Source: Catajapyx aquilonaris (lineage: Eukaryota). Taken from it: 64,000 nt of DNA. Made by a program: the position numbers and the translations under genes. Shown here piece after piece: positions 115 to 44,492 of this stretch. Position 1 is the first letter of the stretch, and every line of letters starts with the position of its first letter. The notes below the pieces were generated by a model. The model made no database searches and was not told the origin of the DNA. It saw only the letters and a list, made by a program, of their open reading frames with translations. The DNA lies in assembly GCA_000934665.2 (NCBI GenBank), contig JYFJ02000441.1, positions 1 to 64,000 of the forward strand, given 5' to 3'.

Positions 115-349
115 ACCTAGAGGAGGTACTCGGCCTGAAATGTGAGGCAGGCAACAATGCAGGCAACAATATGACCTCCAACAAGATGGCGGACGCCTGA
201 CATTATTTGAACTAATTGTCGCCCAGTTGTCATTATTGGTTGTTGTCCCAGTTGCTAGACAACTGTTAGAACAACAATATGACCTCCAACAAGATGGCTG
301 CTGCCTCAGCCTGTCTAATGGAAAAGGATAGGGAGTACCTCCTCTAGGT
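115..349. mobile_element. Small MITE-like element
   Basis: 17-bp perfect TIR acctagaggaggtactc (115-131 / 333-349); internal direct repeat caacaatatgacctccaacaagatggc; TSD unclear. Confidence 0.55.
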
Positions 350-543
350 ATTATATTATATAATAGCAGAACTCTTTGGTCTGGCTATTCAAGTCACATG
401 CTGCTGGAAATTATTATGTACACCAGCAAGTACAGTTTAACTACATGCACAATTATTATCATAGATGAATAGGAGTGTCTATTTTAAGGTGCGTTTGATT
501 TGTATGTGAAGAGCATTAGTTATAGTTTATTTATCTATTTCAG

Positions 544-1236
544 GAAAATTGCGCTGGTTCGGACATCTTGAAGTGCAAGATATGCAAGAAGACATATGAA
601 AATGCTGCACTTCTGGAAGCATGCGTCAACGCTCACCGTGAGGTTGCCCGCGTGAGTGGGAAGCAAAGGGGGCGGAAAGGAGTGCAGTTGCCAGCAAGGG
701 CTCCAATGGTACTGAGAGATAGAACCACAAGAATTAAGCGGTGTAGTACAGGAGCAATTGCTAGTGGCCCGGACTCCAACGATAAGAAAACAGACACAAA
801 GAAACCTGAGGGAAAGGAAAAAGTAAAATACAATAATTTGAAAGTCAATCCAGATGCAAATGATTTGAGAGGAGAAAAGGTTGTCCCAAGGGGGGAAAGG
901 CCCTGGACTTGTAGCATTTGTGAGCAACGTTTTTCTCTAAGGAGTAGTATGGTGACCCACATCAACGGCGTCCATTTGCAACTGAAACCTTATCAGTGCA
1001 ACGCCTGCGGAAAGTCATTTCCACAGGAAGACAAGCTGAAGAACCATATGAGGGTGCACACTGGTGAGAGGCCGTTTTCCTGCGATGTTTGCGGCAAAAC
1101 ATTCACACTGCTTGGAAATTTGCAATCTCACATGCGACAACATACCGGTGAGAAGCCGTATCCTTGTCCCAAGTGTAACAAAGCATTTACACGAAATGAA
1201 GCACTGAAGAATCACTTGGCACGCCATCTTGAATAA
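544..1236 (+). CDS. Terminal exon of a C2H2 zinc-finger gene (atypical C-x2-C-x12-C-x3-H finger plus 4 C2H2 fingers); upstream exons not seen
   Basis: tttcag acceptor at 542-543 in phase with ORF 568..1236; HTGE(K/R)P linkers. Confidence 0.85.
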   Translation, partial: ENCAGSDILKCKICKKTYENAALLEACVNAHREVARVSGKQRGRKGVQLPARAPMVLRDRTTRIKRCSTGAIASGPDSNDKKTDTKKPEGKEKVKYNNLKVNPDANDLRGEKVVPRGERPWTCSICEQRFSLRSSMVTHINGVHLQLKPYQCNACGKSFPQEDKLKNHMRVHTGERPFSCDVCGKTFTLLGNLQSHMRQHTGEKPYPCPKCNKAFTRNEALKNHLARHLE

Positions 1237-2094
1237 TATCTGAGTCACTAAGTTCCAAATGGATTGATCTGATCATGTGTTATAGTCTGTGCCAAAGTTA
1301 TTAACGTTGATCATGTCCATTGGAGCAGGGTAGCTTTAAAATATATTTATTCGGAAGTCATTATTTTTCTTTCATGTTGATCTGTAATGAAGCATCAAGA
1401 TGAGATGTATTGATGATAGCATTGCAATTTCCCTTCAATGTCTTAATTTTTTTCTTTCATTATACTTTCCAATTTGATAGTGGGCGATTTTTTGAATAGT
1501 ATGTTACTCTTTTTCGTTGCACTTTTCATAAATTAATCAGAGTATTGTTATGCGGATCTACAATTCACTATGTTTAAGTTTAAGTTTAAGGCTATTGATG
1601 TGCCCTCAATTCCATATGGAGGAAGAAGGGAAAGTTCAAGTTGTCTCACATCCAGGATTATATGGTCTGACGGCTAGACAGGTCACCTGTCTCGTGACTT
1701 GTAATGCCACATGTGTGATAAACTGTGTCTGACATGAAGAGTAAAGATAAAATAAAGTAATCGGAGGTACCGGTAGTTCAATTGATGTAATTGGAGTTGG
1801 GAGTTTTTTTTACTCCATGCACATCAAGCATTGGAAGCAATTTATGCAGTGTCATCATAAAATGTACCAGCAAAGGAATAAAATTGTAAGCTTGAACTGT
1901 TTTGAGGTCTGTGAGAAATTATTTCTAAACCTATAATATTATGCAGCGGAAAGTTCCACAACATATTTATTTTTAATTTATCTGAAACTTGTCATTTGGT
2001 TTTGTTATTTTCAAATTTTTCAAGGGTGATTTTGAAACTGGAGTTATTGTGAATAGCATAAAACACGTACTTCCTGTCCTGATCACTGTCCTGA

Positions 2095-2680
2095 TCACTT
2101 CGCACGTCAGTTTTCAAATAACCTGCATAACGAAATTTTACCTGGCATGCCTCACAAATATAATTATAGTTTCTCTCCTGTATGAATTCCCATGTGAGTT
2201 TTCAAATAATTTGAGTCGCAAAATTTTTTCTGGCACACGTTGCAAATATATGGTTTTTCTCCTGTACGAATTCGCATGTGAATATTCGAACTACTTAATT
2301 CACCAAATATTTTCTGGCGTAGCCTACCTGATAAATTAATCGCTTTCCTCCTGCATGAACTTGCTTGCAAGTTTTCAACTCGGTTGAGACAGTAAAGTTT
2401 ATTAATGAGCTCCTTCCCTTCTGGATCCCTTTCGCATCCACTCCTCAGTTCTCACTTGCACGACATGAAACAGGAATAAAAGTACACTAAATCAATTTTG
2501 CCGTGTGGATAAGGTAGTGTGAAGCATTCCACCTTCGGAGCCCATTCATCTTTTTCATGTTCAATGTTCATGTTGAATGAATGAATGAAGTTTGTAAATC
2601 CTGCATATGTGAGGAGGTGGCTCCCAAAAGCAAGAGTTGCCACTACTGGTGCTACTGCTACATGCTAATAGCTCTCTTCA
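2095..2680 (-). pseudogene. Degenerate cluster ZNF copy: frameshifted finger exon plus promoter remnant, acidic exon missing
   Basis: ORF 2164..2370 has [16 protein letters not shown]; decayed promoter motif caagagttgccactactggtg near 2631-2651. Confidence 0.7.
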
Positions 2681-3312
2681 TAATTCACTACTTTAAACTT
2701 GGCACAAAAACCAGTTGCGGGTCAGTTGGATTTACGTTTAGGAATTATTTGCAAGAAATGAAAACTGTTTTCCTAATCAGAAACTTTTTTTCCCCCCTTC
2801 TGCAGGCATTGAGGTGCACGTGGATATTTCTTGTTAATTTTTCTCCCACTTGTCACACTCAAAGAGATCACAGGTCATGTCACCAACCTCCTAATTTCTG
2901 GTTCGTTGTTTACGCTACTAAATTCAAGCAAGTTCAGTATGAGGTAGATTCTAATGTTGCGAGTACAATGACATATTTGGGCATATTCGTAGCATGTGTT
3001 GTTATGAAGAACAATTGCATACTTACATAAAACATACAAACTAATTACTGGATAATATTCCATAGCTCCTCCCAAAAGAGCACTGCTCTACCACGTGGTA
3101 AATAAAATAAAAATAAATAAAAAATATTCTGTAGCAGAATAGCCCTTAAAAATCCAGATGTCACACTACATATTCAAAATAATGTTTACAAATGAATGCT
3201 GTTACGGTTGCATCTTACTTTTGGCAACTTTTCAGGTGAGATGTTTTTCTGCCGTGGATCCCATGTAACGTAAATGCACTCTTGATGGAAAGTCCGGCTT
3301 TTTCTCGGCTAA

Positions 3313-3437
3313 GGGCTGAATCTTCGACCTGCGGGAGGGGCGCGCTAACGGGGAGTCGCGTAAGTGGAAGGGAATACGTCACACTTTGTGCGGCCACGCC
3401 CCCTACCAGACTGCGCGATACGTCGAAGATTCAGCCC
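3313..3437. mobile_element. PIF/Harbinger (Tourist-like) MITE
   Basis: TIR gggctgaatcttcgac / gtcgaagattcagccc; TAA on both sides. Confidence 0.8.
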
Positions 3438-5004
3438 TAAATCAACAGATGGAGTTGAGTGAACTATACCGTTCGAACCAGCCACCCATTTTTTATGTTT
3501 CTACATTGTCAACTGAAAACAGCCAAAATGTCATTTACAACGTTGTTCCATAACAGCATTCAAATATGGGCCTGCATGTTTGGCACTGAAAATGATCCAC
3601 CTGGAACAGATGTCATCGTATCAGACCTTAGACATACCATGCAATGAAATGCACTCAAACCGTTGCCATCATTCAGCCTCTGGTTTGAATATCCCACTGT
3701 AAAATTGCAGCCAACAGATGATTCACATTCAATTTTTTAAAGAGTAGTTAACATCCACAGCATTGGTTTAAATACGAGCCATTTAATTATCTTGCGTTAC
3801 TGTTATTTGCCATTCTGCTCTATGACTGGCATTTACAAACTTGGTAGGGTATTACTGGACAAACAGCTGATGCACCATTTATCATTTTTCAGAATAACCA
3901 TTCATGCTAAGTAAACCAAATATAAGAATATCTAAAAAACCAAGGAACACAATTATAGGCCTTACTCTGAAAAACTTGAAAATAATGACATTTCTTCCAA
4001 TAAGACATAATGGCCTTGCTTAACATTTGCCATTGCAATAAATATCAATACAGCGTGAATCCTGACCAAAGGATGCATCAATTACGGTGGAATTGCCCTG
4101 CAACCTAACGACGGAACAGTAGAAAATGGAAAAAGGAAAGGCAATGTTCCTATAAAACTTGCCCTACTTGTCACTGATTCTGATGTGGACTGTACAAATG
4201 GGGCCAATTTGTGTCAATTATCTGGTGAGGGTGACTGTAATGAAATGAAATAGGACAGACGATGATATTTCACAAAAAAGCGCTCAACCTGAAAATAAAA
4301 CTGTGTAATATTAATAAGCCAACTATCCCCCAGTGAAAGATTCAAATGACACATTGGGGGGGAAAAAGTGTCCCTCCTTTCAATTAAAATTAACTTCATA
4401 TGTGAGTACCAGTGGGCAACAGGATACCTACATATTTCCCCCAGTTGAAAATATGAAGGATGTCATTCATGAAGTTATTGTTGGGAAACTTCCCTTGAGC
4501 TGCTCTCACTGAGATATGAAAGAGAAATTTCAGTAACAGCATTTTTTACATAATGCCTCTTTATTTTCATATTTACACTCATTTCCTACTTTCTTGGCAT
4601 TTAATCAAATTTGGTTTATTTTTATTCTTGTTTGTTGGTATTCTGCTATATGATGAGCATCATCCAGATTAGTGATTGGCTTTACCCAATAGGGTAATAC
4701 CAATCAAACAGCTATTGTACATTTTATCATTTTTCAGTACAACCATTCATGTTATGCTAGTCATCATACAATTCGCCTAAATAACCACGAAACACATTTC
4801 ACTGAACATGTGCTTCTTATCACAAGACTTAAAGAACGTCTTCCATTCTCCACTGTGAATACATTGGCAAGAAAGTTTTCAAATGACTTTGAACAGGAGA
4901 ATTTCATTGATACGTGAAACATTAATGGTTTTCTTCCTGCATGACTTCCCATTTCAAATGACTGAAATCACAAATTTTTGCTGACACATGTCACAATGAA
5001 ATGG

Positions 5005-7656: not shown

Positions 7657-9270
7657 TCACACTCCTGTATGAACTTTCTTGTGCCTTTTCAATTGATTTC
7701 CATGACAAAATTTTTCCTGGCACACCTCACAAATAAATGGTTTTTCTCCTGTATGAATACGCATGTGAATTGTCAAACTATATGATTGACGAAATTTCTT
7801 CTGGCACACTTCACAGGTGTAAGGCTTCTCTCCTGTATGAATTCGCATGTGGTTATTCAAACCACTTGATTTACGAAATTTCGTCTCGCACACCTCACAA
7901 GTGTATGGTTTCTCTTCTGTATGAATTCGCATGTGATTTTTCAGAAGACCTGAATAACGAAATTTCTTCTGGCATACCTCACAAATGTAAGGTTTCTCTC
8001 CTGTATGAATTCGCATGTGAGCCTGCAAAGAACTTAAATCACAAAGTTTCTTCTGGCACACCTCACAAATGTAAGGATACTCTCCCGTATGAATTCGCAT
8101 ATGAATTTTCAATTTATGTGCATGACAAAAACATTTCTGGCACACCTCACATGTGTGTAGGTTCTCTCCTGTATGAATTCTCATGTGAGGTCTCAAACCT
8201 TGTAAGTCACGAAATTTCTTCTGGCACACGTCACAAATAAATGACTTACTACTGTCTCCTTCATGAATTCGCATGTGGGATTTCAACTGACCTGAACTAC
8301 AAAAACGTTTCTGGCACATCTCACAAACGAATGGTTTCTCTCCAGTATGAATCCGCATGTGCATTTTCAAACTACCTGATTCAACAAATGATTTCTGGCA
8401 GACGTCACATACGAAAGGCTTTTCTCCTGTATGACTTCGCATGTGAATTTTCAAACTACTTGATTCACGATATTTTTTCTGGCACACCTCACATACATGA
8501 GGCTTTTCTCCTGTGTGACCTCGCATGTGAGTTTTCAAATTACTAGAAGAACGGAATTTTTTCTGGCACACCTCACATACATGAGGCTTTTCGCCTGTGT
8601 GACCCCGCATATGAATTTTCAAAATACTGGAAGAACGACAAATTTTCTGGCACACCTCACAAATGTATGGTGTCTTTTCTGTATGAATTTGCATGTGCGC
8701 CTTCAAATTACGTGAATAACGAAATTTCATCTGGCAGACCTCACAATCAAGAGGTCTCTTTCCTGTATGAATTCGCTTGCGAGCTTTGCCGCGAGCTTTC
8801 GACTCAGTTGCACCAGGAATGTGTCTTTCCATCAGGATCCCTTCCTTTTCTTCTCCGTCTTCAGCTTTCATGTCCACAACCTGAACAAGAAGAATATTTA
8901 TAAATATTTTTCTATGTGAATTGTAGCGTCCCGGCGTCCCACCTGCTATGGTCACATGGATGGTCCCCTTTGTTAGGATACCGGTACATACCCCACTGAT
9001 CTCTCCAGATTCACCTCCTAATAAAGGGTCTTCTTCGTCCACACTGGGCATGTCCACCACCATCTCCTCCTCCTCTGGTGGTTCTTCCTTGATGTCACCG
9101 GGAGTGTCTTGTATGAATTGAGTCGAGTTGAAGCAATAAGACGGGCTCTCCTCCTTCAAGGCCAACTTCCAGCCCTCCTCATCCACCGTGATGTCTTCCT
9201 CCCCTTCTTCCTTCTTTATCATCTGGACAGCTGATGGACATTTCTTTTCCAGGAAAAGGTGGTCGGCCAT
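7657..9270 (-). CDS. Cluster ZNF gene Z2: 13 fingers; first intron and normal ATG deleted; acidic exon ends 8992, finger exon starts 8880
   Basis: 537-aa continuous ORF; 111-nt stop-free intron 8881-8991; junction with 5'UTR-exon sequence near 9228. Confidence 0.8.
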
Positions 9271-9343
9271 TTTCGATGAATTTGGGGTGCATTCCCATCG
9301 CCATGATGGAAAATGGCGGGTCGATCAGCTGATCTTGAGCAGC

Positions 9344-10853
9344 ATGGACCTGGGCATTGTCGCTCTGCTGGTGGCTCGTGGGGCCCTCCGACGGGACCGG
9401 GTCTTCCGAGACCGGGCCAACGCCTTCGAGTTGCCCGACTCGGTGTTCAGGGACGCGTACCGCCTGCCGAAGCATGTGGTAATGCAGGTGTGCGACGCAC
9501 TTAGGGACCGGCTGACAGGACGAGGGCCCACGTCCATGCCTGTTGAGACCAAGGTGCTGGTGGCCCTGCATTTTTATGGCACTGGCAATGCCCAAGACGC
9601 CAATACCATGAGCCACTACCATCCGCAGTCGCAGGCTGGGGTGTCCGTGGCCATAGAGCAGGTCACCAACGCCTTGGTTAGTGGACCTCTTCTGAAGAAG
9701 ATCACGTTCGAGTCTGACAGTGACACTCTGCACAGACGAAAGGTAGGTACATACTGACCCAACCAGGTGGATGGTTCATATCTTCCAACATCTTTTCAGA
9801 GACTTTTTTTTGACAAGTGTCAGCTTCCTGACGTCATTGGTGCATTAGACTGCACGTACGTCAACATCAAGAAGCCATCAAATGTCATAAACCCTATGTC
9901 TTACCTGGACAGAACGGGTAATTTTTCCATCAACGTTGAACTGGTAAGGTGGTCCACATGGCATTGTTTCTGTGACTTTATGATTTATCACCCTAGGTGT
10001 GTGACAGAGAACTACGCATCCTGCACGTGTCAGCGAGATGGCCGGGAAGTAACCACGACTCGTACATATGGAGGAATTCGGGGATGAGGAGCCGTCTGCT
10101 TCGCCTCCCAGGGCTCGGCCATCTCCTGGGTAGGTCTTGATGTGCTCATGTCCACACTGTCCACATGCAGAAAGTTCGGAAGGCCAGGAGAGAACAGCCC
10201 ACTGGATAACATAACCCCATATCATGAACAGTGATTCTGTAGTGCAGTCATTACTGCTTGTAATGACAATATCATTTGTTGCAAATTCTAACACCAGTGT
10301 ATCACCATTTCAGGCGATAGTTGCTATCCACTGGAGCCCTTTCTAATGACCCCTCTCCCAGTTCCAACCAGTGAGATGGAGAAGGAGTACAATTATCGTC
10401 ATGCTGTGGGAAGGAATCCTGTCGAAAGAGCATTCGGGGTGCTGAAGGCACGCTTCAGGTGCCTTCACCATTCAGGAGGAGACCTGGTATACCATCCTGG
10501 GAAGGTGTGCCGTATATATGTGGCCTGTGCCATTTTACATAACGTGTGCCGAGAAGCAGACGGGCGCTTCAAGGAGGACTATGACACAGATGATGATGAT
10601 GATCCTGAGAGTTGTAAGCATTAATGCAGAAAAAATGGTACATGCAGACCACCACCCATCTATAATTATAGGTTCTGATGATGACAAGGAAGACAACCCA
10701 GATGAGGGGTGTCAGTATGATCCTGAGAACGGCACAGCGGCTGCAGCTGTGACAGCCACAATGGCCAGTGAGAAGCGTCAGCAACTGGTGGGCCTGTGCA
10801 CTAGCCACATCAGGAGGCAAGCACTTGCGAGACAGAGGCGAAGGTGTAACTGA
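9344..10853 (+). CDS. PIF/Harbinger DDE transposase (HARBI1-like nuclease), ~385 aa; exons 9344-9742, 9800-9943, 9997-10129, 10314-10613, 10672-10853
   Basis: Motifs VIGALDCT, SINVELVCD, WPGSNHD, LLGDSCYP, VERAFGVLKARF; all introns GT-AG with matching phases (0,0,1,1). Confidence 0.9.
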
Positions 10854-11128
10854 TTTTTTCCCCTGGTGTAACGCAAACTGTGGTGTTCATGTAAGAATTA
10901 TGAGTATTATTTACATTCATTAGTGAATGTATTTAACAAAAATAGTGTAACTTATACGAGTACATTTCACAAATACATGAAATACGTAGAACAAGTAGGT
11001 ACAAAATATATTGAAAAAGTTTTCTGATGAGCAGTACTGAGTTCTTTGTCAGATTTAAAACTGAAAGACGCCCAATGGTGGTACAAATGTTTAATAAATT
11101 ATGAATTATCATGAAGATATTGAATAAT

Positions 11129-11273
11129 GGGGCTGTGCAGACGGGCCGGCCTTGGCCGCAGCCCTGGCCAACTTCCAGGAAGTTGGCCTACGTTGTAAGC
11201 CATGGCCTGGCCGTGGCTTGCCAGGTGTGAACCGTTGCGGCCGCGGCTGGGCTTGGCCCGTCTGCACGGCCCC
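11129..11273. mobile_element. GC-rich Harbinger-type MITE between the 3' ends of the nuclease and Myb genes
   Basis: TIR ggggctgtgcagacgggcc / ggcccgtctgcacggcccc in AT-rich flanks. Confidence 0.7.
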
Positions 11274-11568
11274 TATAATTTATCTGAAGACAATTTCTTG
11301 AAACATACGTAAGTGGTGAAATGAACACAAATAAATGAAGCTTGGTACTTGTTGGTGGACAAACTCTTCAACACTGCAGGTATTTTCTGGCATTACTGGA
11401 TTACCGAACATGAAAATATGAAAGTACATGATGGTTTTGGTCACATTCCATCAGTCAAATTGTTGGCATTGTATAGGTTTTTTTTTGGTTTGTTTAGCAA
11501 TTAGAAATGAAATCACTGTTTCTTTCTCGTAATACAGTAAGAATCTGGAAATAAAAATGTATACATAT

Positions 11569-13295
11569 CTATGTATCTTGTTGAGTGGTCCTTAACTTGA
11601 TCATTTCCTGCAGGGCCAAGGCAATTGTCCCCAGGTGGGAGGACATCACAGCGTGGTGTCGGTTGGCTTCTCTTTGTTCTTGAAGCATCTTTACGCGGTG
11701 TAGGTTGGCTTGTCTTTGTTCTTGCAGCATCAGTGCGTGGTGTCGGTTGGCTCGTCTTTCTTCTCGAAGCATAGCGTTGTTGTGCTCAGCAGCCTGTGTG
11801 GGTAGTTAAGAATTAGGCATGAGCTCAGATCTAAATAATTCAGCAAGTCCCAGAGTACATAAATTGTGACACATGCTTGTTCCAGGTATTGTTCCAACTG
11901 GGTGTTGCGGGTACGCCTCTCCGTCCTCCTCCTCTCTTGCCTGGGCCTGGCACCTGCACCGGTAGAGGGCTGCTTGGGGGGATGTTGGTTTGTGCCTTGG
12001 GTAGACTCACCACGGGTAGACCTGTTGGACGCACCAGTCACACTGCAATAAGGTTCCATGACAAATTGGTAAGTAGCAAGACAATGTTGTCACATGGAAT
12101 GGACACTGGAAGAAACATAGCTGGTGTGAATTTTCCTTTACTTCCTGTTCATATGTACTATATCGCCCAAAAAGATGGAGACGATTTTGCATTTGACTCA
12201 AGTGCAACTTGCACTTGAATCAAATGCCAATCGTCTCTATCTTTTTGAGCGATATAGTACATCATGTTCACAGAAATGCGAGGCAGTTCATTATCTGACT
12301 TCGGAAAAATTTTCACTTACTTGGTCACATTACTGGTGTCCACTCCCAGGCTCTCGCCTTCAACATTTTCAATACCAATGAATGGCAGCACCTCCTCCTC
12401 CAATGGTGTGAGGGCTGCACAGGCTGGCCCTCCTCCAGTACCTTGCTTATGCTTGTAAACAGCATTGGCCTTTGATTTCACCTGTGTGATAATAATGGCA
12501 ATCATGAGTGAAAAGTTGAAAAGCAGTTTCATTTATGATCCGACAGGTTATAAAAAGTAGTGACAATACGAAGTGGAACCCTGATATATCATGCACTTCA
12601 ATTTCTGCGTGATTATTATTAGTACGGGTTATTAGTGATCACAGCTCATCAACATCATTGGCATGTATGAAATACTTCCTGTTCCGGGACGCTCATTGGT
12701 TTCATTGCTAGCTACAGTATGGGTAAGCTAACTTATGGGTTTTGGGAGGTGGCTTGTGTCCTTGGCAGCCATAATTAAGCCCCGCCCCCTACCGGTCGAC
12801 CAATCAGGATTCGATATCAAAGGAGGTGGGCATTATAAAATCTCAACAATGAGTTTGTTTACACTAACGCAGTTGGTAACTTAGCAGAGGAGAAATATTT
12901 CCCAACTAATCCTTTTAAATTCCATACCAAAGAACTCAGCAGGGGGCGGGGCTAATATGACTGCCAAGGACACAAGCCACCTCCCAAAACCCATATTAGC
13001 TTACCCCTACTGTAGCTGTAATAAAAATAATATATTTCATTGCATGCTATACCCAGCTTTTGTAATAGGACCACTTTTCCCTCGTCTCTGTGCCCGTTCT
13101 TTCATTGCCTCCTACTGCATTCACAACAGCGGCACATGCCTCCCAAGCGCCCCTGAGGGCCTCAGAATTGGGCAGGGTGGGACATAAGACACCACCCGCC
13201 AAATCCTCGTGGTCCTTCAGGTATCCAACGAGAGCAGACAGCTCTTGGCCAATCCAATTTGGGCGCCTCTGCTTTCTACCACTAGGCCGACTCAT
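11569..13295 (-). CDS. Harbinger Myb/SANT-like DNA-binding protein, ~264 aa; exons 13295-13053, 12481-12321, 12042-11877, 11793-11569
   Basis: RRPNW...EL..L...AW..C...VN...RT...REKW trihelix pattern, GTGGGP motif, C-terminal coiled-coil repeats; last intron needs a GC donor (caa|gcatgt). Confidence 0.8.
12153..12262. repeat. Near-perfect 110-bp palindrome in Myb gene intron 2
   Basis: atgtactatatcgc...caagtgcaa c ttgcacttg...gcgatatagtacat. Confidence 0.8.
12715..13012. mobile_element. Tc1/mariner-type MITE in Myb gene intron 1
   Basis: ~75-bp TIRs with CAGT/ACTG ends, TA TSD; inverted second copy at 62306-62604. Confidence 0.85.
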
Positions 13296-13812
13296 ATGGG
13301 CTGCAGAATTCGTACTTTACCACCAGTGGGCATAAATTATAGCGCGCCCTTTTCCTGAATTGGCGGTTAGAAGCCTGTTGCTGTCACGGGAAGATCTGGG
13401 GGGCGACTCCGGCCGATTATTATCATATGAGAGGCCACCACGATTGAAGATATAAGGCTCCTTTACCGGCGGCCATACTTGAGCCACCACGATTCCGCCC
13501 CGTTCCGCAAACCGATAGAGGCGCCACCAGAAATGCGTGCGCAATTGACCACTTTTAACGTTCAGAGACCTCTGGCGGTTTCAACTCGCCACGGGCAGAA
13601 AGCACGACCACAGTGCTCACTGCTCAGCTCACTTAGCTCATAATATCACCGGACAATGTGACAAACCTTGCCTGGCAGGGCCACATAGACAGACAGTACA
13701 AGTGCGGTCACTCCAAGGCTACACAGATGCCACCAACTCAAAACGATAGTAAAATCTGATGTGACTTTTCCCATCATTAAAGGTTATCCAATATATTCAG
13801 AAGATTACCTAC

Positions 13813-14070
13813 CCCACTCTTATTATCTCCATATTCACCTCCTAAAGGGTCTTCTTCGTCCACCCTGGGCATGTCCACCACCATCTCCTCCTCCTCTGGT
13901 GGTTCTTCCTTGATCTCACGTAGAGTGTCTCGTATGAATTGAGTCGAGTCTCCATTGAAGCAAGACGGGCTCTCCTCCTTCAAGGCCAACTTCCAGGTCT
14001 CCTCATCCACTGTTATGTCTTCCTCTTCCTCCACTTCCTCCTTATTCTTTATCATCTGGACCAGAGACAT
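13813..14070 (-). CDS. Acidic cluster exon (copy B) with its own promoter (~14234-14332) but no adjacent finger exon
   Basis: Intact MSLVQMIK...DPLGG frame; intron homology to Z1 stops near 13591, where Harbinger sequence begins. Confidence 0.75.
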
Positions 14071-14886
14071 GGTCCTGCCAACAAGACTTCAGGTCATAGA
14101 ACTGACTCACCCTTCCGCGTCCACACCAGTCCGAGTGCGGGTAAACATAGCCGAACAAGTGAGGTCACGACAAACTCGGAATATAATTCAAGGCACAGCT
14201 GATGGGCATTTCTTCTCCACAAAAAATGAAATGTGGTCGGCCATCTTTGATCAATTGGGGTGCATTCCCATCGCCACCGAGGGTAAAGGATTAAAGCGCT
14301 ATTCTCAATCAAAGGTCGCCGCTACTGGTGATACTCTGCGATAGCCGCTAACGAATGAGACGTCAGCTTCAGCTATAATTTCCCTTTTTGTTTCTTATTT
14401 GGAAATTGTACTCATTTATTCCTATCATGGCATTAAATCAAATCTGGTTTATTTTTGTTCTTGTTTATTGGTATTCTGCTCTCTGATCATATTAGTGACT
14501 GGCAATCAGTAGGGTAATACGGGACAAACAGCATTACATTTACAGGGTATATGGTACCTTTTACAATTTTTCAGACTAAACATTATTCATGCAATGCAAA
14601 CCAAGTTATCGTAGTATATTTTGTCTAAAGAACCAAGAAACACATTTCACTGAAATTATATTATTTTCTTCTCACAATACTCAAGGCACTTGCTTAGGTG
14701 ACCGCACCATTCTCTCATTCACCCAAATGAATATGCCAGCAAGTTTTCAATAACATTGATCACAAAAAATTTATTGCTGGCTTAAAAATTAATGGTTTCG
14801 CTCCTGCATGAAATCACATATTATGTGAGTATATTCAAATGATTTGAACCGCATAATTTTTTGCTGGCACATGTCACAATGAATGG

Positions 14887-22032: not shown

Positions 22033-22941
22033 TCAGGACCTGACAGTCTCTTCTTCCACACTAAATTTCATCTCATATTGTGTTTTGTTTAAGCTTTTGC
22101 AGTTCGAACACATTTCGTCATGATATACAACCAGGTCACAGTTCTTGTGCCGTATGTGCCCAAGGCAGTCCACGAATGCTGACGCAGGACATCCAGTGTG
22201 GATAAGATCTGCACGCAACATACTACCGTCACATACTTTGGCTCTGTCCAATTCTAATATTAAGGCTTCCAAGTGCTCCACGGATTGAAGCCCATCACGG
22301 GGTATTCCTAACTTTTCTATGTCTAGTAACATACCCACAACGCTACATGTAATTATTCCATTTTCATCAACAGATACGCTCTTATGGAAAACAGGATCAA
22401 CATGATGTCTCCCATCTGTGTCACTTACCAACTGAGAATAGCACACCATTATAGGACCTATCATTGGAACTATGCGGTTCCAGTAGGGCGGAAGTGCAAC
22501 AGCTTTTGAGTTTTTGTAGAGGTACATTAATGTCTTAAAGTCTTTCAATGCACATGCTGACGTCTCATCTGCCTTTGCCTCTTGTTTCACACCAGGATTG
22601 GCTTGCGGAGCGCAAACAGGGGTGGGATACACAGTGTCTTGGCCCAAGTTGTCACCACATTTTAGTCCACCGTCTGATGTGCGATGTGACGATGACACTG
22701 CTCCTAAAGGGTCATCCTCGTCCACCCTGGGGATGTCCACCACCATCTCCTCCTCCTCTGCTGCCTCCTCCTGCTCCTCTGATGGGTCCTGCTTGATCGC
22801 ACGAGGAGTGTCTTGTGTGAGAGTCGAGTCCCCGTCGAAGCAATAAGACGGGCTCTCCTCCTTCACGGCCACCATCCAGGTCTCCTCATCCACTGTGATA
22901 TCTTCCTCCACTTCCTCCTTTATCCTCTCCACCAGTGACAT
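22033..22941 (-). CDS. 302-aa protein: cluster acidic module fused in frame to a non-C2H2 Cys/His domain (P-element/THAP transposase-like by eye)
   Basis: Same promoter and ATG context as the ZNF genes; no donor after DPLG; LPPYW...VCDG...D.LG.IRHKNC-x9-CSNC. Confidence 0.75.
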   Translation of the reverse strand: MSLVERIKEEVEEDITVDEETWMVAVKEESPSYCFDGDSTLTQDTPRAIKQDPSEEQEEAAEEEEMVVDIPRVDEDDPLGAVSSSHRTSDGGLKCGDNLGQDTVYPTPVCAPQANPGVKQEAKADETSACALKDFKTLMYLYKNSKAVALPPYWNRIVPMIGPIMVCYSQLVSDTDGRHHVDPVFHKSVSVDENGIITCSVVGMLLDIEKLGIPRDGLQSVEHLEALILELDRAKVCDGSMLRADLIHTGCPASAFVDCLGHIRHKNCDLVVYHDEMCSNCKSLNKTQYEMKFSVEEETVRS

Positions 22942-23228
22942 GGTCCTGCCAACACAAATACTGCAGGTCATGTAATCATGTCTATAGCAGTGTAACTCAC
23001 CCTTCTCGTCACCCTTCCGCTGCGTCCAAACCAGTCCGAGTTCAGGGAAAAAGAGAGCCCAACAAGTCAAAAGGAGGAGACGAATCGAAAGTTCATCAAC
23101 AACGGAAAATGTCGTCGGCCATCTTTTTTGATTGACCTTCAATTGTGGTGCATTCCCATCGCCACCATATGATCAAACAGTTATTTTTCATCAAGAGTCG
23201 CCGCTACTGGTGCTAAACTGCTATATGC

Positions 23229-29854: not shown

Positions 29855-30334
29855 TAATAATAATAATAATTTCCTCTTCAGACAAAAGTGTGATTATTTG
29901 ATCACATTGTGATACTAGTACAACATATCATGAGGGTTTTGCAATGGGAACCATTTACTGTATACATCACCATGTGGTTGAGGATTGTAAAAATTATTTC
30001 CAAAGCATCTTCCAAGTCTGGGTGATTAATTTCTACTGATCATTCCGAGTGACTTTAGTGCAAATGTACATCACATTTTCACCACATTACGCACCCCTCC
30101 TGATCCGCCTCCTAAAGGGTCATCCTCGTCCACCCTGGGCATGTCCACCACCATCTCCTCCTCCTCTGGTGGTTCTTCCTTGATCTCACGTAGAGTGTCT
30201 CGTATGAATTGAGTCGAGTCCCCGTCGAAGCAAGAGGGACTCTCCTCCTTCAAGGCCAACTTCCAGCCCTCCTCATCCACCGTGATGTCTTCCTCCTCCA
30301 CTTCCTCCTTCTTTATCCTCTGCACCAGTGACAT
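26872..30334 (-). CDS. Cluster ZNF gene Z8: acidic exon 30334-30095 + 9-finger exon 27717-26872
   Basis: Phase-0 GT/AG sites; promoter module ~30511-30618. Confidence 0.85.
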
Positions 30335-36243: not shown

Positions 36244-38838
36244 TCATTTGTGAATTCGCATGTGAGATTTCAAATGACCTGAACGGTAAAAACTTTTCTG
36301 GCACACCTCGCAAATATATGGTTTCTCTCCTGTATGAATTCGCATGTGACTTTTCAAATTACCTGATTCACAAAATTTCTTCTGGCACACCTCGCAAGTA
36401 AATGGTTTTTCTCCTGTATGAATTCGCATGTGACTTTTCAAACTACCCGACTCACGGAATTTCTTCTGGCACACCTCGCAAGTAAATGGTTTTTCTCCTG
36501 TATGAATTTGCATGTGAATTTTCAAAGTTATTGAATTACGAAATTTCTTCTTGCATACCTCACAAGTACATGGTTTCTCTGCTGCATGATTTAGCTTGTG
36601 AATTTTCAAATTACTCGAGTCACTAAATTTCTTCTGGCACACCTCGCAAATATATGGTTTTTCTCCTGTATGAATTCGCATGTGAATTTTCAAATTACTC
36701 GATTCACGAAATTTCTTCTGGCACACCTCGCAAGTAAATGGTTTTTCTCCTGTATGAGTTCGCTCGTGAATTTTCAAACTATGGGATTGACGAAATTTTT
36801 TCTGGCACACCTCACAAACAAATGGTTTCTCTCCTGTATGAATTAGCATGTGACATTTCAAACTGTTTGCAGCAGAAAAAAAATTCTGGCACACGTTGCA
36901 AATGAATTGTTTTTGTCCAGTATGAATTCGCCTGCGAATTTTCAACTGAATTGAAGCTTTCTGGATCTCCTTTTCCACTCCATCTTCAATTCGCATTTGC
37001 ACAACCTGCAATGTCAATAAGAGCATATCAATTTCTATTTTGTAGCGTAGGCTACACATTATATACTAAAATAGTGTGAAGGATTCCACCTGCTACCGTC
37101 GTTTGTGAGGTCCCGTCTATTAAACATAGGGGCATGAAGTTGTCTAATGTATCCACACATACAATCACAAATTTCAGTATAGCTACATGAAATGTTAGAA
37201 TGGCATGAATAATGAACTCTGTGGAATCGAGGTCAGAAATGGTAATTTTATTTTCACATTCGTTATCTTAGCATGTGAATATTTTAGAAAACTTGCTCAA
37301 ATTTCCTGGGAAGTCATATATATTGTTGGGTCATTCCATGTCAATTCTGTAAATGATGGTGGTTCGATCCCTTCCGAAAAAAATCATGTAGTTAGGTATC
37401 GACACCTTATTGCGAAATCCTAAATTTGAGGCCGTTGGAGTCAAATCTCACGGATATATAACAATGGAAAGTTCAACAATGACGTCCATGTAAAGTATTT
37501 TTAACTGTTCAGACTGTTCTCCCGACTCCAACATGTTACATATCAAATGGAAGGCAATCAAGAGAGTTATAACATGGTTACAAAATATTCGACCTAACTC
37601 GAAAAACGACGTCGCAAAAAAATTCGCACATATATGTCCAAATCACTCTATATTCCCGATAGCAGTTTCGATGGGTTCTCTCCGTGTTCGCGTGGGTTTT
37701 TCCGGGGTTCTCCCGTTTCCTCCCGCAATCAAAATTCATCACAGCAAAGGCAATGATTAAAGACGGTTATTCAAAAGATGATCCCCTAAGAGGCCCAAGG
37801 AGGCCTATCACGGGGGTATCCATTATCATCCATTATTATTATATTCCCGATAGCCGTAACTCGTAACATTATGATTTTAACAAAGTGATATTTAGGATAC
37901 AGGGCAATCACCTAGTTTGTTAAATGCACATGCAAAACCTCAGTGTGATAGGTCAAGCAGGGTTGGAAATAAAAATTCCCGAAAATATGAATTACCGCAT
38001 TTTGCCGATTTTCGAGTTCAAATTTCTCCAGGTAGGACTGGATCGATTTTGACTTTTGGTATGTCAATAGATTCCTTAGATCACCCCCTATTCAGAAATG
38101 CATAACACATTCTTTACCCGTGATCGATAATAATTGAACGGCTGAAACACGTGGCATTAAATTCCTCATAAAAAGGAACACTCACTATGCTGGTTTAATG
38201 CCATAATCCCACTGGATTTTTATAGCGAACAAACACAGACTTCCTAAAACATGGACGCAGATATTTTAAACTGGGTTTGCTGCTGGACCAGAGAGATTGA
38301 ACAATGTTGATGGAATATCATAATTGTCCTTGGATGATGATTATTATTTTTATTATTACTATTAATTTCCTCTTCATACAAAAGTGTCATTATTTGATCA
38401 CATGGTGATACTAGTACAACATATCATGAGGATTTTGCAATGGGAATTATGTACTGTACAGTACATCACCATGTGGTTGAGGATTGTGAAAATTATTTCC
38501 AAAGCATCTTCCAATAGTCTGGGCGATTAATTTGTACTGGTCATTCTGTGTCACATCAGTGCAAAATAATTACATCACATTTTCACCACATTACGCACCC
38601 CTCCTGATCCGCCTCCTAAAGGGTCATCCTCGTCCACCCTGGGCATGTCCACCACCATCTCCTCCTCCTCTGGTGGTTCTTCCTTGATCTCACGTAGAGT
38701 GTCTCGTATGAATTGAGTGGAGTCCCCGTCGAAGCAAGACGGGCTCTCCTCCTTCAAGGCCAACTTCCAGCCCTCCTCATCCACCGTGATATCTTCCTCC
38801 TCCACTTCCTCCTTCTTTATCCTCTGCACCAGTGACAT
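36244..38838 (-). CDS. Cluster ZNF gene Z10: acidic exon 38838-38599 + 8-finger exon 37005-36244
   Basis: Phase-0 GT/AG sites; promoter module ~39012-39121. Confidence 0.85.
37662..37830 (+). mobile_element. 5'-truncated copy of SINE family 2
   Basis: Matches the reverse complement of 39863-40030. Confidence 0.7.
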
Positions 38839-43997: not shown

Positions 43998-44492
43998 AAT
44001 AATAATAATAATAATTTCATATTCAGACAAAAGTGTGATTATTTGATCAACTGGTGATACTAGTACAAGATATCATGAGGATTTTGCAATGGGAACCATG
44101 TACTCCACATCATATGTGGCTGAGTTTAATATCAGCAGGAGTGTAAAAATTTCCCAAGCATCTTCCAATAGTCTGGGTGATTAATTTGTACTGATCATTC
44201 CGCGTGACTTTAGTGCAAAATCACACCACATTTTCACCACATTACGCACCCCTCCTGATCCGCCTCCTAAAGGGTCATCCTCGTCCACCCTGGGCATGTC
44301 CACCACCATCTCCTCCTCCTCCTCCGGTGGTTCTTCCTTGATCTCACGTAGAGTGTCTCGTATGAATTGAGTCGAGTCCCCGTCGAAGCAAGACGGGCTC
44401 TCCTCCTTCAAGGCCAACTTCCAGCCCTCCTCATCCACCGTGATATCTTCCTCCTCCACTTCCTCCTTCTTTATCCTCTGCACCAGTGACAT
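41288..44492 (-). CDS. Cluster ZNF gene Z11: acidic exon 44492-44250 + 13-finger exon 42472-41288
   Basis: Phase-0 GT/AG sites; promoter module ~44669-44769. Confidence 0.85.
43653..43920 (+). mobile_element. 5'-truncated SINE family 1 copy inside a microsatellite
   Basis: cccggggacacccccttcatc...cccctcctgtcatcctgcccgtg. Confidence 0.75.

What the first reader, a model, noticed from the sequence alone, without database searches (positions are those of the whole stretch)
9260..13590. TIR-less, intact Harbinger nuclease + Myb pair wired into a ZNF-cluster promoter
Seen: a 5-exon DDE nuclease with its catalytic-motif acidic residues present and a convergent 4-exon Myb/SANT gene, the usual Harbinger layout. 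The nuclease ATG (9344) is only ~40 bp from the cluster motif ggggtgcattcccatcgcc (to ~9303), leaving almost no room for a left end; I see no TIR or TWA duplication at either side. YY1-like motifs face outwards on both strands (ggccatttt ~9265, aaaatggcgg ~9310). MITEs and a palindrome sit only in introns or the intergenic spacer while exons stay open. Established: Harbinger pairs were domesticated as chromatin regulators (HARBI1/NAIF1, ALP1/ALP2, HDP1/HDP2). Inference: an immobilised pair co-expressed with the ZNF cluster from a bidirectional promoter.
Basis: partly seen in the sequence, partly recalled or inferred. Interest (0 to 1): 0.78.

Follow-up and report, generated by a model that had tools for sequence, protein, structure and literature searches.

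The report
One-ended Harbinger transposon, still expressed
A two-gene jumping element inside a zinc-finger gene cluster has lost one of its two ends but keeps the other, and both of its genes are intact and spliced, so it is likely trapped and possibly at an early stage of being adopted by the host, a known route to new regulators.

Summary
The two genes are real: a 385-aa five-exon Harbinger nuclease (D150, D227, E263 present) and a convergent 264-aa four-exon Myb/SANT gene. 'TIR-less' is wrong. A full 20-bp terminal repeat sits at 13481-13500. Its 17-bp core occurs 33 times in the genome, mostly followed by TWA, at the ends of non-autonomous elements and broken relatives. Only the left end (about 215 bp) is gone, fused to a cut zinc-finger promoter; one YY1-like motif there is element-derived. 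No near-identical nuclease copy was found. A second sample gives spliced contigs of both genes. A second haplotype keeps Myb exons 2-4 open, but pN/pS is about 0.85. No orthologue was found. Verdict: a trapped, one-ended, expressed Harbinger; young domestication is plausible (about 45%), passive survival is nearly as likely, and the bidirectional promoter is untested. The scan noted similar Harbinger-derived genes on other pieces of this genome (unchecked), but not this element.

The parts
7657..8880 (-). Zinc-finger exon of host gene B (13 C2H2 repeats)
8992..9303 (-). Exon 1 and truncated promoter of host gene B; ATG at 9270 lies in the YY1-like GGCCAT motif shared by all ten aligned cluster promoters; the upstream promoter half is replaced by Harbinger DNA
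   Evidence: 'YY1-like' is a recalled label
9304..9343 (+). Stub of the Harbinger left end incl. AAAATGGCGG; aligns to positions about 218-255 inside the left TIR of relative C9847, so about 215 bp with the left TIR are missing
   Evidence: (score 37; 0 of 500 shuffles reached it, maximum 35); junction bridged by contigs 9173-9452 in runs X1 and X2
9344..10853 (+). Harbinger DDE nuclease gene, 5 exons, 385 aa; D150/D227/E263 kept; departs from conserved columns at K172T, G229C, P123E
   Evidence: intron 10614-10671 skipped in run X5
11129..11273 (.). Unrelated MITE in the spacer (107 exact matches of its 17-bp end in the genome); X5 contigs of both genes run into it
11569..13295 (-). Myb/SANT-like gene, 4 exons, 264 aa, intron 3 GC-AG
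   Evidence: introns 2 and 3 skipped in run X5
12155..12256 (.). High-copy palindromic insert in Myb intron 2, absent from the second haplotype
12714..13013 (.). About 300-bp MITE in Myb intron 1, 9.0% from the consensus of 27 other copies; absent from relatives C1213 and C4377
13296..13480 (.). Right subterminal region, 72-76% like family members, with internal deletions
13481..13500 (.). Intact right terminal inverted repeat (GGGC-ending variant, as in C1213 and C1367); followed by CGT, not TWA
13501..14360 (-). Orphan 5' half of host gene A: promoter, exon 1 (ATG 14070, donor after 13813) and about 310 bp of intron, with no zinc-finger exon of its own
   Evidence: bridged to the TIR by contigs 12966-13865 in X1, X2, X4

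Best explanation
This is a Harbinger transposon that keeps its right terminal repeat, lacks its left end and still yields spliced transcripts of both genes; it is likely unable to jump and likely kept by weak, recent host selection as a Myb-plus-nuclease DNA-binding pair. Inferred history: the element inserted into the first intron of zinc-finger gene A; one deletion then ran from about 215 bp inside its left end to the middle of gene B's promoter, removing the left TIR, A's zinc-finger exon and the upstream half of B's promoter. That left B's and the nuclease's start regions back to back within about 45 bp. From established Harbinger biology (not tested here), the Myb protein would bind the nuclease N-terminus, bring it into the nucleus and bind the TIR sequence, which here means its own right end and the dozens of family ends in the genome.
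For: Shown: right TIR and family (33 exact core matches, control 0; of the 30 ends read, 24 of the 29 outside the window have TWA three bases after the core); left stub homologous to C9847; both junctions bridged by read contigs; 3 DNA matches for the nuclease region, the other two being 77-80% fragments; next-best exon-4 match 59% among 47; contig depth over the nuclease like its flanks (36.6 vs 31-42, 32.7 vs 26-36, 16.7 vs 17-21, which warns depth is no copy number). Run X5 (other sample and study) skips three introns exactly, with no mismatches in the listed pieces. For selection: a minor haplotype also carries the left junction (one X4 contig); C15966 differs at 22 of 252 intron sites but 10 of 511 exon sites, with no exon indel; simulated neutral survival of both frames is 0.14-0.28 at 1% divergence and at most 0.006 at 4%; 41 of 44 conserved nuclease columns are kept.
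Against: Myb exons 2-4 between haplotypes: 3 synonymous and 8 non-synonymous changes, pN/pS about 0.85, Fisher p 0.73; synonymous sites are also quieter than introns (p 0.026), so the exon-intron gap is not clearly protein selection. dN/dS 0.20 against C9847 only reflects the transposon's past. No orthologue among 21 and 150 listed hits, best 60% and 56%. An intact TIR and related copies fail two usual criteria. With 47 nuclease matches in the genome, 46 without a stop in the matched part, one open survivor is unsurprising. Mobile Harbingers are also transcribed (PMC9179366, passages). The missing TWA at the right end is not explained by a single deletion. That C15966 is an allele and not a second copy is inferred.
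Confidence: 0.45

Rival explanations
1. A trapped transposon in early decay. The frames are open because immobilisation is fairly recent and because the reader picked the survivor among many copies; transcription is passive, from the element's own and the neighbouring promoters.
For: pN/pS about 0.85; K172T is found in 0 of 40 homologues at a column 90% K, and G229C in 2 of 40; TF-to-NA change at 82-83 against both close relatives; perfect TIR core suggests recent mobility; low contig depth of 2-7 in X5; neutral survival 0.14-0.28 if only 1% divergence has passed.
Against: Intron divergence of 8.7% between haplotypes and a 9%-diverged MITE inside suggest a longer stay, at which neutral survival is at most 0.006; subterminal DNA has several deletions while 1,947 coding bases have no frame break; 3 departures from conserved columns is ordinary (19 of 40 homologues have as many).
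Confidence: 0.35
2. A trapped master copy: it cannot move but supplies nuclease and Myb in trans to the non-autonomous elements that share its TIR.
For: It is the only copy of this TIR family with both genes whole that the searches found; nuclease-side ends of the family are 93.5-99.1% like their nearest neighbour (16 of 17 ends scored); DDE triad intact; precedent for one intact DDE locus serving a family in C. inopinata, itself hypothetical there (PMC13668399, sections 8 and 12).
Against: Its subterminal DNA is only 72-76% like the family, whereas C9847 matches the common end at 93.5%, so another lineage founded them; K172T may cripple cutting (effect untested); the fragmented assembly may hide the real source; supply in trans gives no selection to keep a fixed copy intact.
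Confidence: 0.12
3. What is kept is a fusion: the orphan promoter and acidic exon 1 of gene A splice onto the same-strand Myb gene (or across the element onto gene B's zinc fingers).
For: A's conserved phase-0 donor joins in frame to Myb exon 2 and to B's zinc-finger exon (493 aa); a second possible donor joins in frame just upstream of the Myb ATG. A has no zinc-finger exon of its own.
Against: No joint from exon A to either target was listed (2 joints not shown, contigs show presence only); the acceptor before Myb exon 1 has a weak pyrimidine tract, and with the conserved donor it hits a stop at once; it does not explain the open nuclease.
Confidence: 0.08

Closest known systems
PIF/Harbinger transposons of animals (two genes, short TIRs, 3-bp TWA duplication; PMC9179366 passages, PMC13668399 abstract and sections 8, 12)
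   Same: DDE_Tnp_4 nuclease plus Myb/SANT gene, 20-bp TIR, family of TWA-flanked non-autonomous derivatives, transcription.
   Different: This copy has one TIR only, no TWA, and is fused to a host promoter.
Co-domesticated insect pairs APLG1/APM1, APLG2/APM2 (Anopheles) and LPLG2/LPM2 (Lepidoptera) (PMC9710019, passages)
   Same: Adjacent nuclease and DNA-binding genes from one insertion, open frames, coding part at low copy.
   Different: Those lack TIRs and related copies and have syntenic orthologues under purifying selection; here a TIR and relatives remain and no orthologue was found.
HARBI1/NAIF1 and MSANTD1-4 (PMC9392472, passages); ALP1/ALP2 and HDP1/HDP2 (search listing with abstract starts only)
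   Same: Same two ancestral protein types.
   Different: Those are ancient, conserved host genes; best database matches here are 'putative nuclease HARBI1' entries of sea urchin and bivalves at 54-60% over one exon, i.e. family-level likeness, not orthology.
Harbinger-1M_cIno family of Caenorhabditis inopinata (PMC13668399)
   Same: Many non-coding TIR-bearing derivatives and a single intact DDE gene found.
   Different: There DDE and MADF genes lie in separate two-ended elements; here both lie in one single-ended copy.

Membership tests
PIF/Harbinger superfamily (origin) | DDE transposase of the Harbinger type with catalytic triad | tested here: met
   PF13359 above cut-off in exons 3 and 4; D150, D227, E263 in conserved columns of 40 homologues
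PIF/Harbinger superfamily (origin) | Second gene with Myb/SANT-like domain | tested here: met
   PF13873, 29.5 bits vs cut-off 21.7
PIF/Harbinger superfamily (origin) | Short TIRs and TWA duplication in the family | tested here: met
   24 of 29 other ends read have TWA; two-ended copies with TWA on both sides, e.g. C253, C1213, C1367, C6164
Autonomous, mobile Harbinger element | Two TIRs and a TWA duplication around this copy | tested here: not met
   One TIR-like match (up to 5 mismatches) in the whole window, at 13481; followed by CGT
Autonomous, mobile Harbinger element | Catalytic activity | not testable with these tools
   Triad intact; K172T and G229C of unknown effect
Co-domesticated PIF pair (criteria of PMC9710019) | Intact coding regions | tested here: met
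   three introns confirmed by run X5
Co-domesticated PIF pair (criteria of PMC9710019) | No TIRs or target duplication | tested here: not met
   Right TIR intact; left TIR and TWA absent
Co-domesticated PIF pair (criteria of PMC9710019) | No related copies in the genome | tested here: not met
   Broken relatives at 69-80% and a TIR-sharing family; no near-identical nuclease copy found
Co-domesticated PIF pair (criteria of PMC9710019) | Purifying selection after immobilisation | tested here: inconclusive
   pN/pS about 0.85 on 3 vs 8 changes; exons quieter than introns and frame survival unlikely if old
Co-domesticated PIF pair (criteria of PMC9710019) | Syntenic orthologues in related species | not testable with these tools
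   No relatives of G000 are held; no orthologue-level protein hit
Bidirectional promoter | Divergent transcription starts between 9270 and 9344 | not testable with these tools
   Only contigs were available, which cannot show starts

The most novel reading that the evidence does not exclude
A deletion welded a Harbinger's start region to a zinc-finger gene's start region, making a 45-bp back-to-back promoter, and the host now keeps the catalytically intact pair, whose Myb protein still reads the family TIR at dozens of genomic sites: domestication caught midway, with the ancestral binding sites, broken relatives and two haplotypes all still available for comparison.
Probability: 0.2. Interest if true: 0.6.

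Novelty: new member of a known kind. Interest (0 to 1): 0.3.

Why it matters
Known Harbinger domestications are old and have lost their transposon context. If selection is confirmed, this copy shows an intermediate stage: one end gone, triad intact, both genes spliced, and the family's TIR sites still in the genome, so one can ask whether the pair still cuts, only binds, or does neither. If not confirmed, it is an ordinary truncated transposon and a caution that self-comparison alone misses a lone TIR.

Tried and rejected
'TIR-less': rejected; self-comparison finds nothing, but comparison with a relative revealed the right TIR. Many near-identical coding copies: not found (these searches score only the best candidates and the assembly is fragmented). 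Assembly artefact at either junction: rejected, both bridged by read contigs (these runs may be the assembly's source). Local MITEs as substrates: rejected, none has TWA flanks or the family TIR. Insert placement as a sign of selection: weak, chance about 0.10. CpG ratios of exons (0.10-0.86) overlapped those of other Harbinger copies and gave nothing usable. Polarising the 24 amino-acid differences between exon 1 and C9847 gave 8 window-derived, 8 relative-derived, 8 unclear: no excess on this branch. No RNA holder was listed; X5's kind is not on record and is read as RNA from its intron skips. X5 has no cover at 9355-9539 and 13055-13794, which says nothing about starts or expression. The longer-protein search with exon 1 found nothing (weak). 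The left-stub match was found only in C9847, not in the five other loci whose ends were tried. No fold or complex was run: only single exons could be given, and a pass would not separate transposon from host gene. Literature searches for a Harbinger pair at a zinc-finger bidirectional promoter (1 paper, on Tc1/mariner, listing only) and for a one-ended transposase source (15 of 149 listed, none on this) found no direct precedent; the library lacks most subscription papers. No supplementary files were read.
Full report
Gene models. The nuclease exons 9344-9742, 9800-9943, 9997-10129, 10314-10613 and 10672-10853 join to an open frame of 385 aa. Of 8 exon pieces scanned, exons 3 and 4 pass the Pfam cut-off for DDE_Tnp_4 and Myb exon 1 passes that for Myb_DNA-bind_5. 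The Myb gene (13295-13053, 12481-12321, 12042-11877, 11793-11569) gives 264 aa and needs a GC-AG third intron. Against the 40 of 171 fetched proteins that span the core, the nuclease keeps 41 of 44 columns conserved at 80% or more, including D150, D202, D227 and E263; it departs at P123E, K172T (0 of 40 have T) and G229C. Nineteen of the 40 have three or more departures, so the core is near normal.

The ends. A search with the nuclease region gave 3 matches: itself, C9847 (80%, exon 1 only) and C3968 (77%, fragment). In C9847, 307 bp upstream of the ATG, lies a sequence ending in GGCC followed by TAA whose 17-bp core also stands in the window at 13481-13497, upstream of the Myb gene. That core has 33 exact matches in the genome and the reversed control none. 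Thirty ends were read (3 matches came without a locus): 24 of the 29 outside the window have TWA three bases after the core. Four inverted pairs enclose 0.7-1.0 kb non-coding elements. Copies on C1213, C4120 and C4377 carry broken Myb exon 1 sequence next to the same end, and C1213 and C1367 end in GCCC plus TWA on both sides, as the window's end does in GCCC (5 matches of that variant). So 13481-13500 is a complete right TIR. It is followed by CGT, not TWA, and no other TIR-like site exists in the window at up to 5 mismatches. The subterminal DNA is 72-76% like the family and has internal deletions.

The left junction. The nine other aligned cluster promoters continue the motif with ACC and most then carry a conserved upstream block; at 9303 the motif stops and other DNA begins. 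Bases 9305-9339 align to C9847 about 218-255 bp inside its left TIR (score 37, 0 of 500 shuffles as high, maximum 35; score 35 for the stub alone). About 215 bp of the left end are therefore missing, and AAAATGGCGG came with the element, while GGCCAT is the cluster's own motif, holding gene B's first ATG. 'YY1-like' is a recalled label; no tool tested it. On the right, the TIR abuts the intron of gene A, which has a promoter and exon 1 but no zinc-finger exon; A and B are each other's closest exon-1 match in the window by a small margin (93.1% vs 92.3%). One insertion into A's intron and one later deletion explain this layout (inference); the missing TWA needs a further small change.

Reads. 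Five runs hold the stretch, none on record as RNA; 4 were laid. DNA contigs of sample S1 bridge both junctions, and depth over the nuclease is like the flanks; these runs may be the source of the assembly. Run X5 (sample S2, other study) has contigs that skip 10614-10671 (GT-AG), Myb intron 2 and Myb intron 3 exactly, with no mismatches in the listed pieces, and two more that stop at the ends of nuclease exons 1 and 2. I read X5 as RNA for that reason. Depth is 2-7, and contigs show neither starts nor levels.

Selection. A minor haplotype, about a quarter of depth in X2 and X4, differs across 11440-12309 and lacks the palindrome; it matches contig C15966. One X4 contig with variants at 9252 and 9307 spans the left junction, so the junction is likely older than the haplotype split (one contig; linkage to C15966 inferred). 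C15966 differs at 22 of 252 intron sites, with three small indels, and 10 of 511 exon sites, with none. In the right frame there are 3 synonymous and 8 non-synonymous codon changes, pN/pS about 0.85, p 0.73; both classes are lower than introns (p 0.026 and 0.0002) (the Myb figure used a wrong frame and is discarded). Simulated neutral survival of both frames is 0.14-0.28 at 1% divergence, 0.02-0.07 at 2% and at most 0.006 at 4%, assuming 0.05-0.1 indels per substitution. The intron-1 MITE is 9.0% from its consensus (27 other copies: 3.9-9.4%) but may predate immobilisation. Against this, the genome holds 47 nuclease and 18 Myb matches, so a survivor is expected. The evidence for host selection is suggestive, not decisive.

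Other species. No relatives of this genome are held. Exon 4 found 21 proteins, best 60%, the named ones mostly 'putative nuclease HARBI1' of sea urchin, bivalves and insects; exon 1 found 406 representatives, the 150 listed at 56% or less. No orthologue was seen, which may only reflect sampling.

Comparison. Insect domestications were called on synteny, purifying selection and absence of TIRs and related copies (PMC9710019, passages); this copy fails two and the rest is open. The Myb protein binds the transposase N-terminus and the TIRs (PMC9392472 and PMC9179366, passages), and ordinary Harbingers are transcribed, so expression does not separate the readings. A family served by one intact DDE gene is described in C. 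inopinata (PMC13668399, abstract and sections 8 and 12), whose authors note that transcription alone does not establish function. ALP1/ALP2 and HDP1/HDP2 were seen as listings only. Searches found no direct precedent for the promoter fusion. Earlier scan notes describe several single-copy Harbinger-derived genes elsewhere in this genome (8 of 20 shown; unchecked), none near or like this one.

Verdict. A real, one-ended, expressed Harbinger pair. Young domestication 0.45, passive survival 0.35, trans source 0.12, leader fusion 0.08. New member of a known kind; interest 0.3.

Noticed in passing
window 7657-9324 (-): Gene B is compacted: a deletion of about 130 bp removed the usual MSL start and joined the short upstream frame to exon 1, and its intron is cut to 111 bp and open in frame, so a 555-codon frame runs unspliced through the gene.
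   Followed up: partly
window 13501-14360 (-): Orphan zinc-finger promoter and exon 1 can splice in frame to Myb exon 2 or across the element to gene B's zinc fingers; no read support seen.
   Followed up: partly
window 13280-13310: The start codon used by relatives (C1213, C1234, C4120, C4377) is missing with part of the Myb 5' leader; an in-frame ATG a few codons downstream stands in its place.
   Followed up: partly
window 22033-23172 (-): A cluster-type exon 1 runs on into a non-zinc-finger coding stretch with Cys/His motifs instead of a C2H2 array; possibly another captured transposon domain.
   Followed up: no
window 10745-11791: X5 contigs of the two convergent genes both reach into the spacer MITE (to 11190 and from 11244), so their 3' ends may meet or overlap in a hairpin.
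   Followed up: no
L110 (G000:C6396) 202-4041: Another Harbinger pair with apparently open exons and a 28-bp inverted repeat of its own at both ends: a likely complete element of a different family.
   Followed up: partly
window 30085-30330, 38590-38835, 44240-44490: Three near-identical zinc-finger first exons, a recent expansion within the cluster.
   Followed up: no
window 12155-12256: The palindrome is a very high-copy insert (summed contig depth over 40,000) and is present in one haplotype only.
   Followed up: partly
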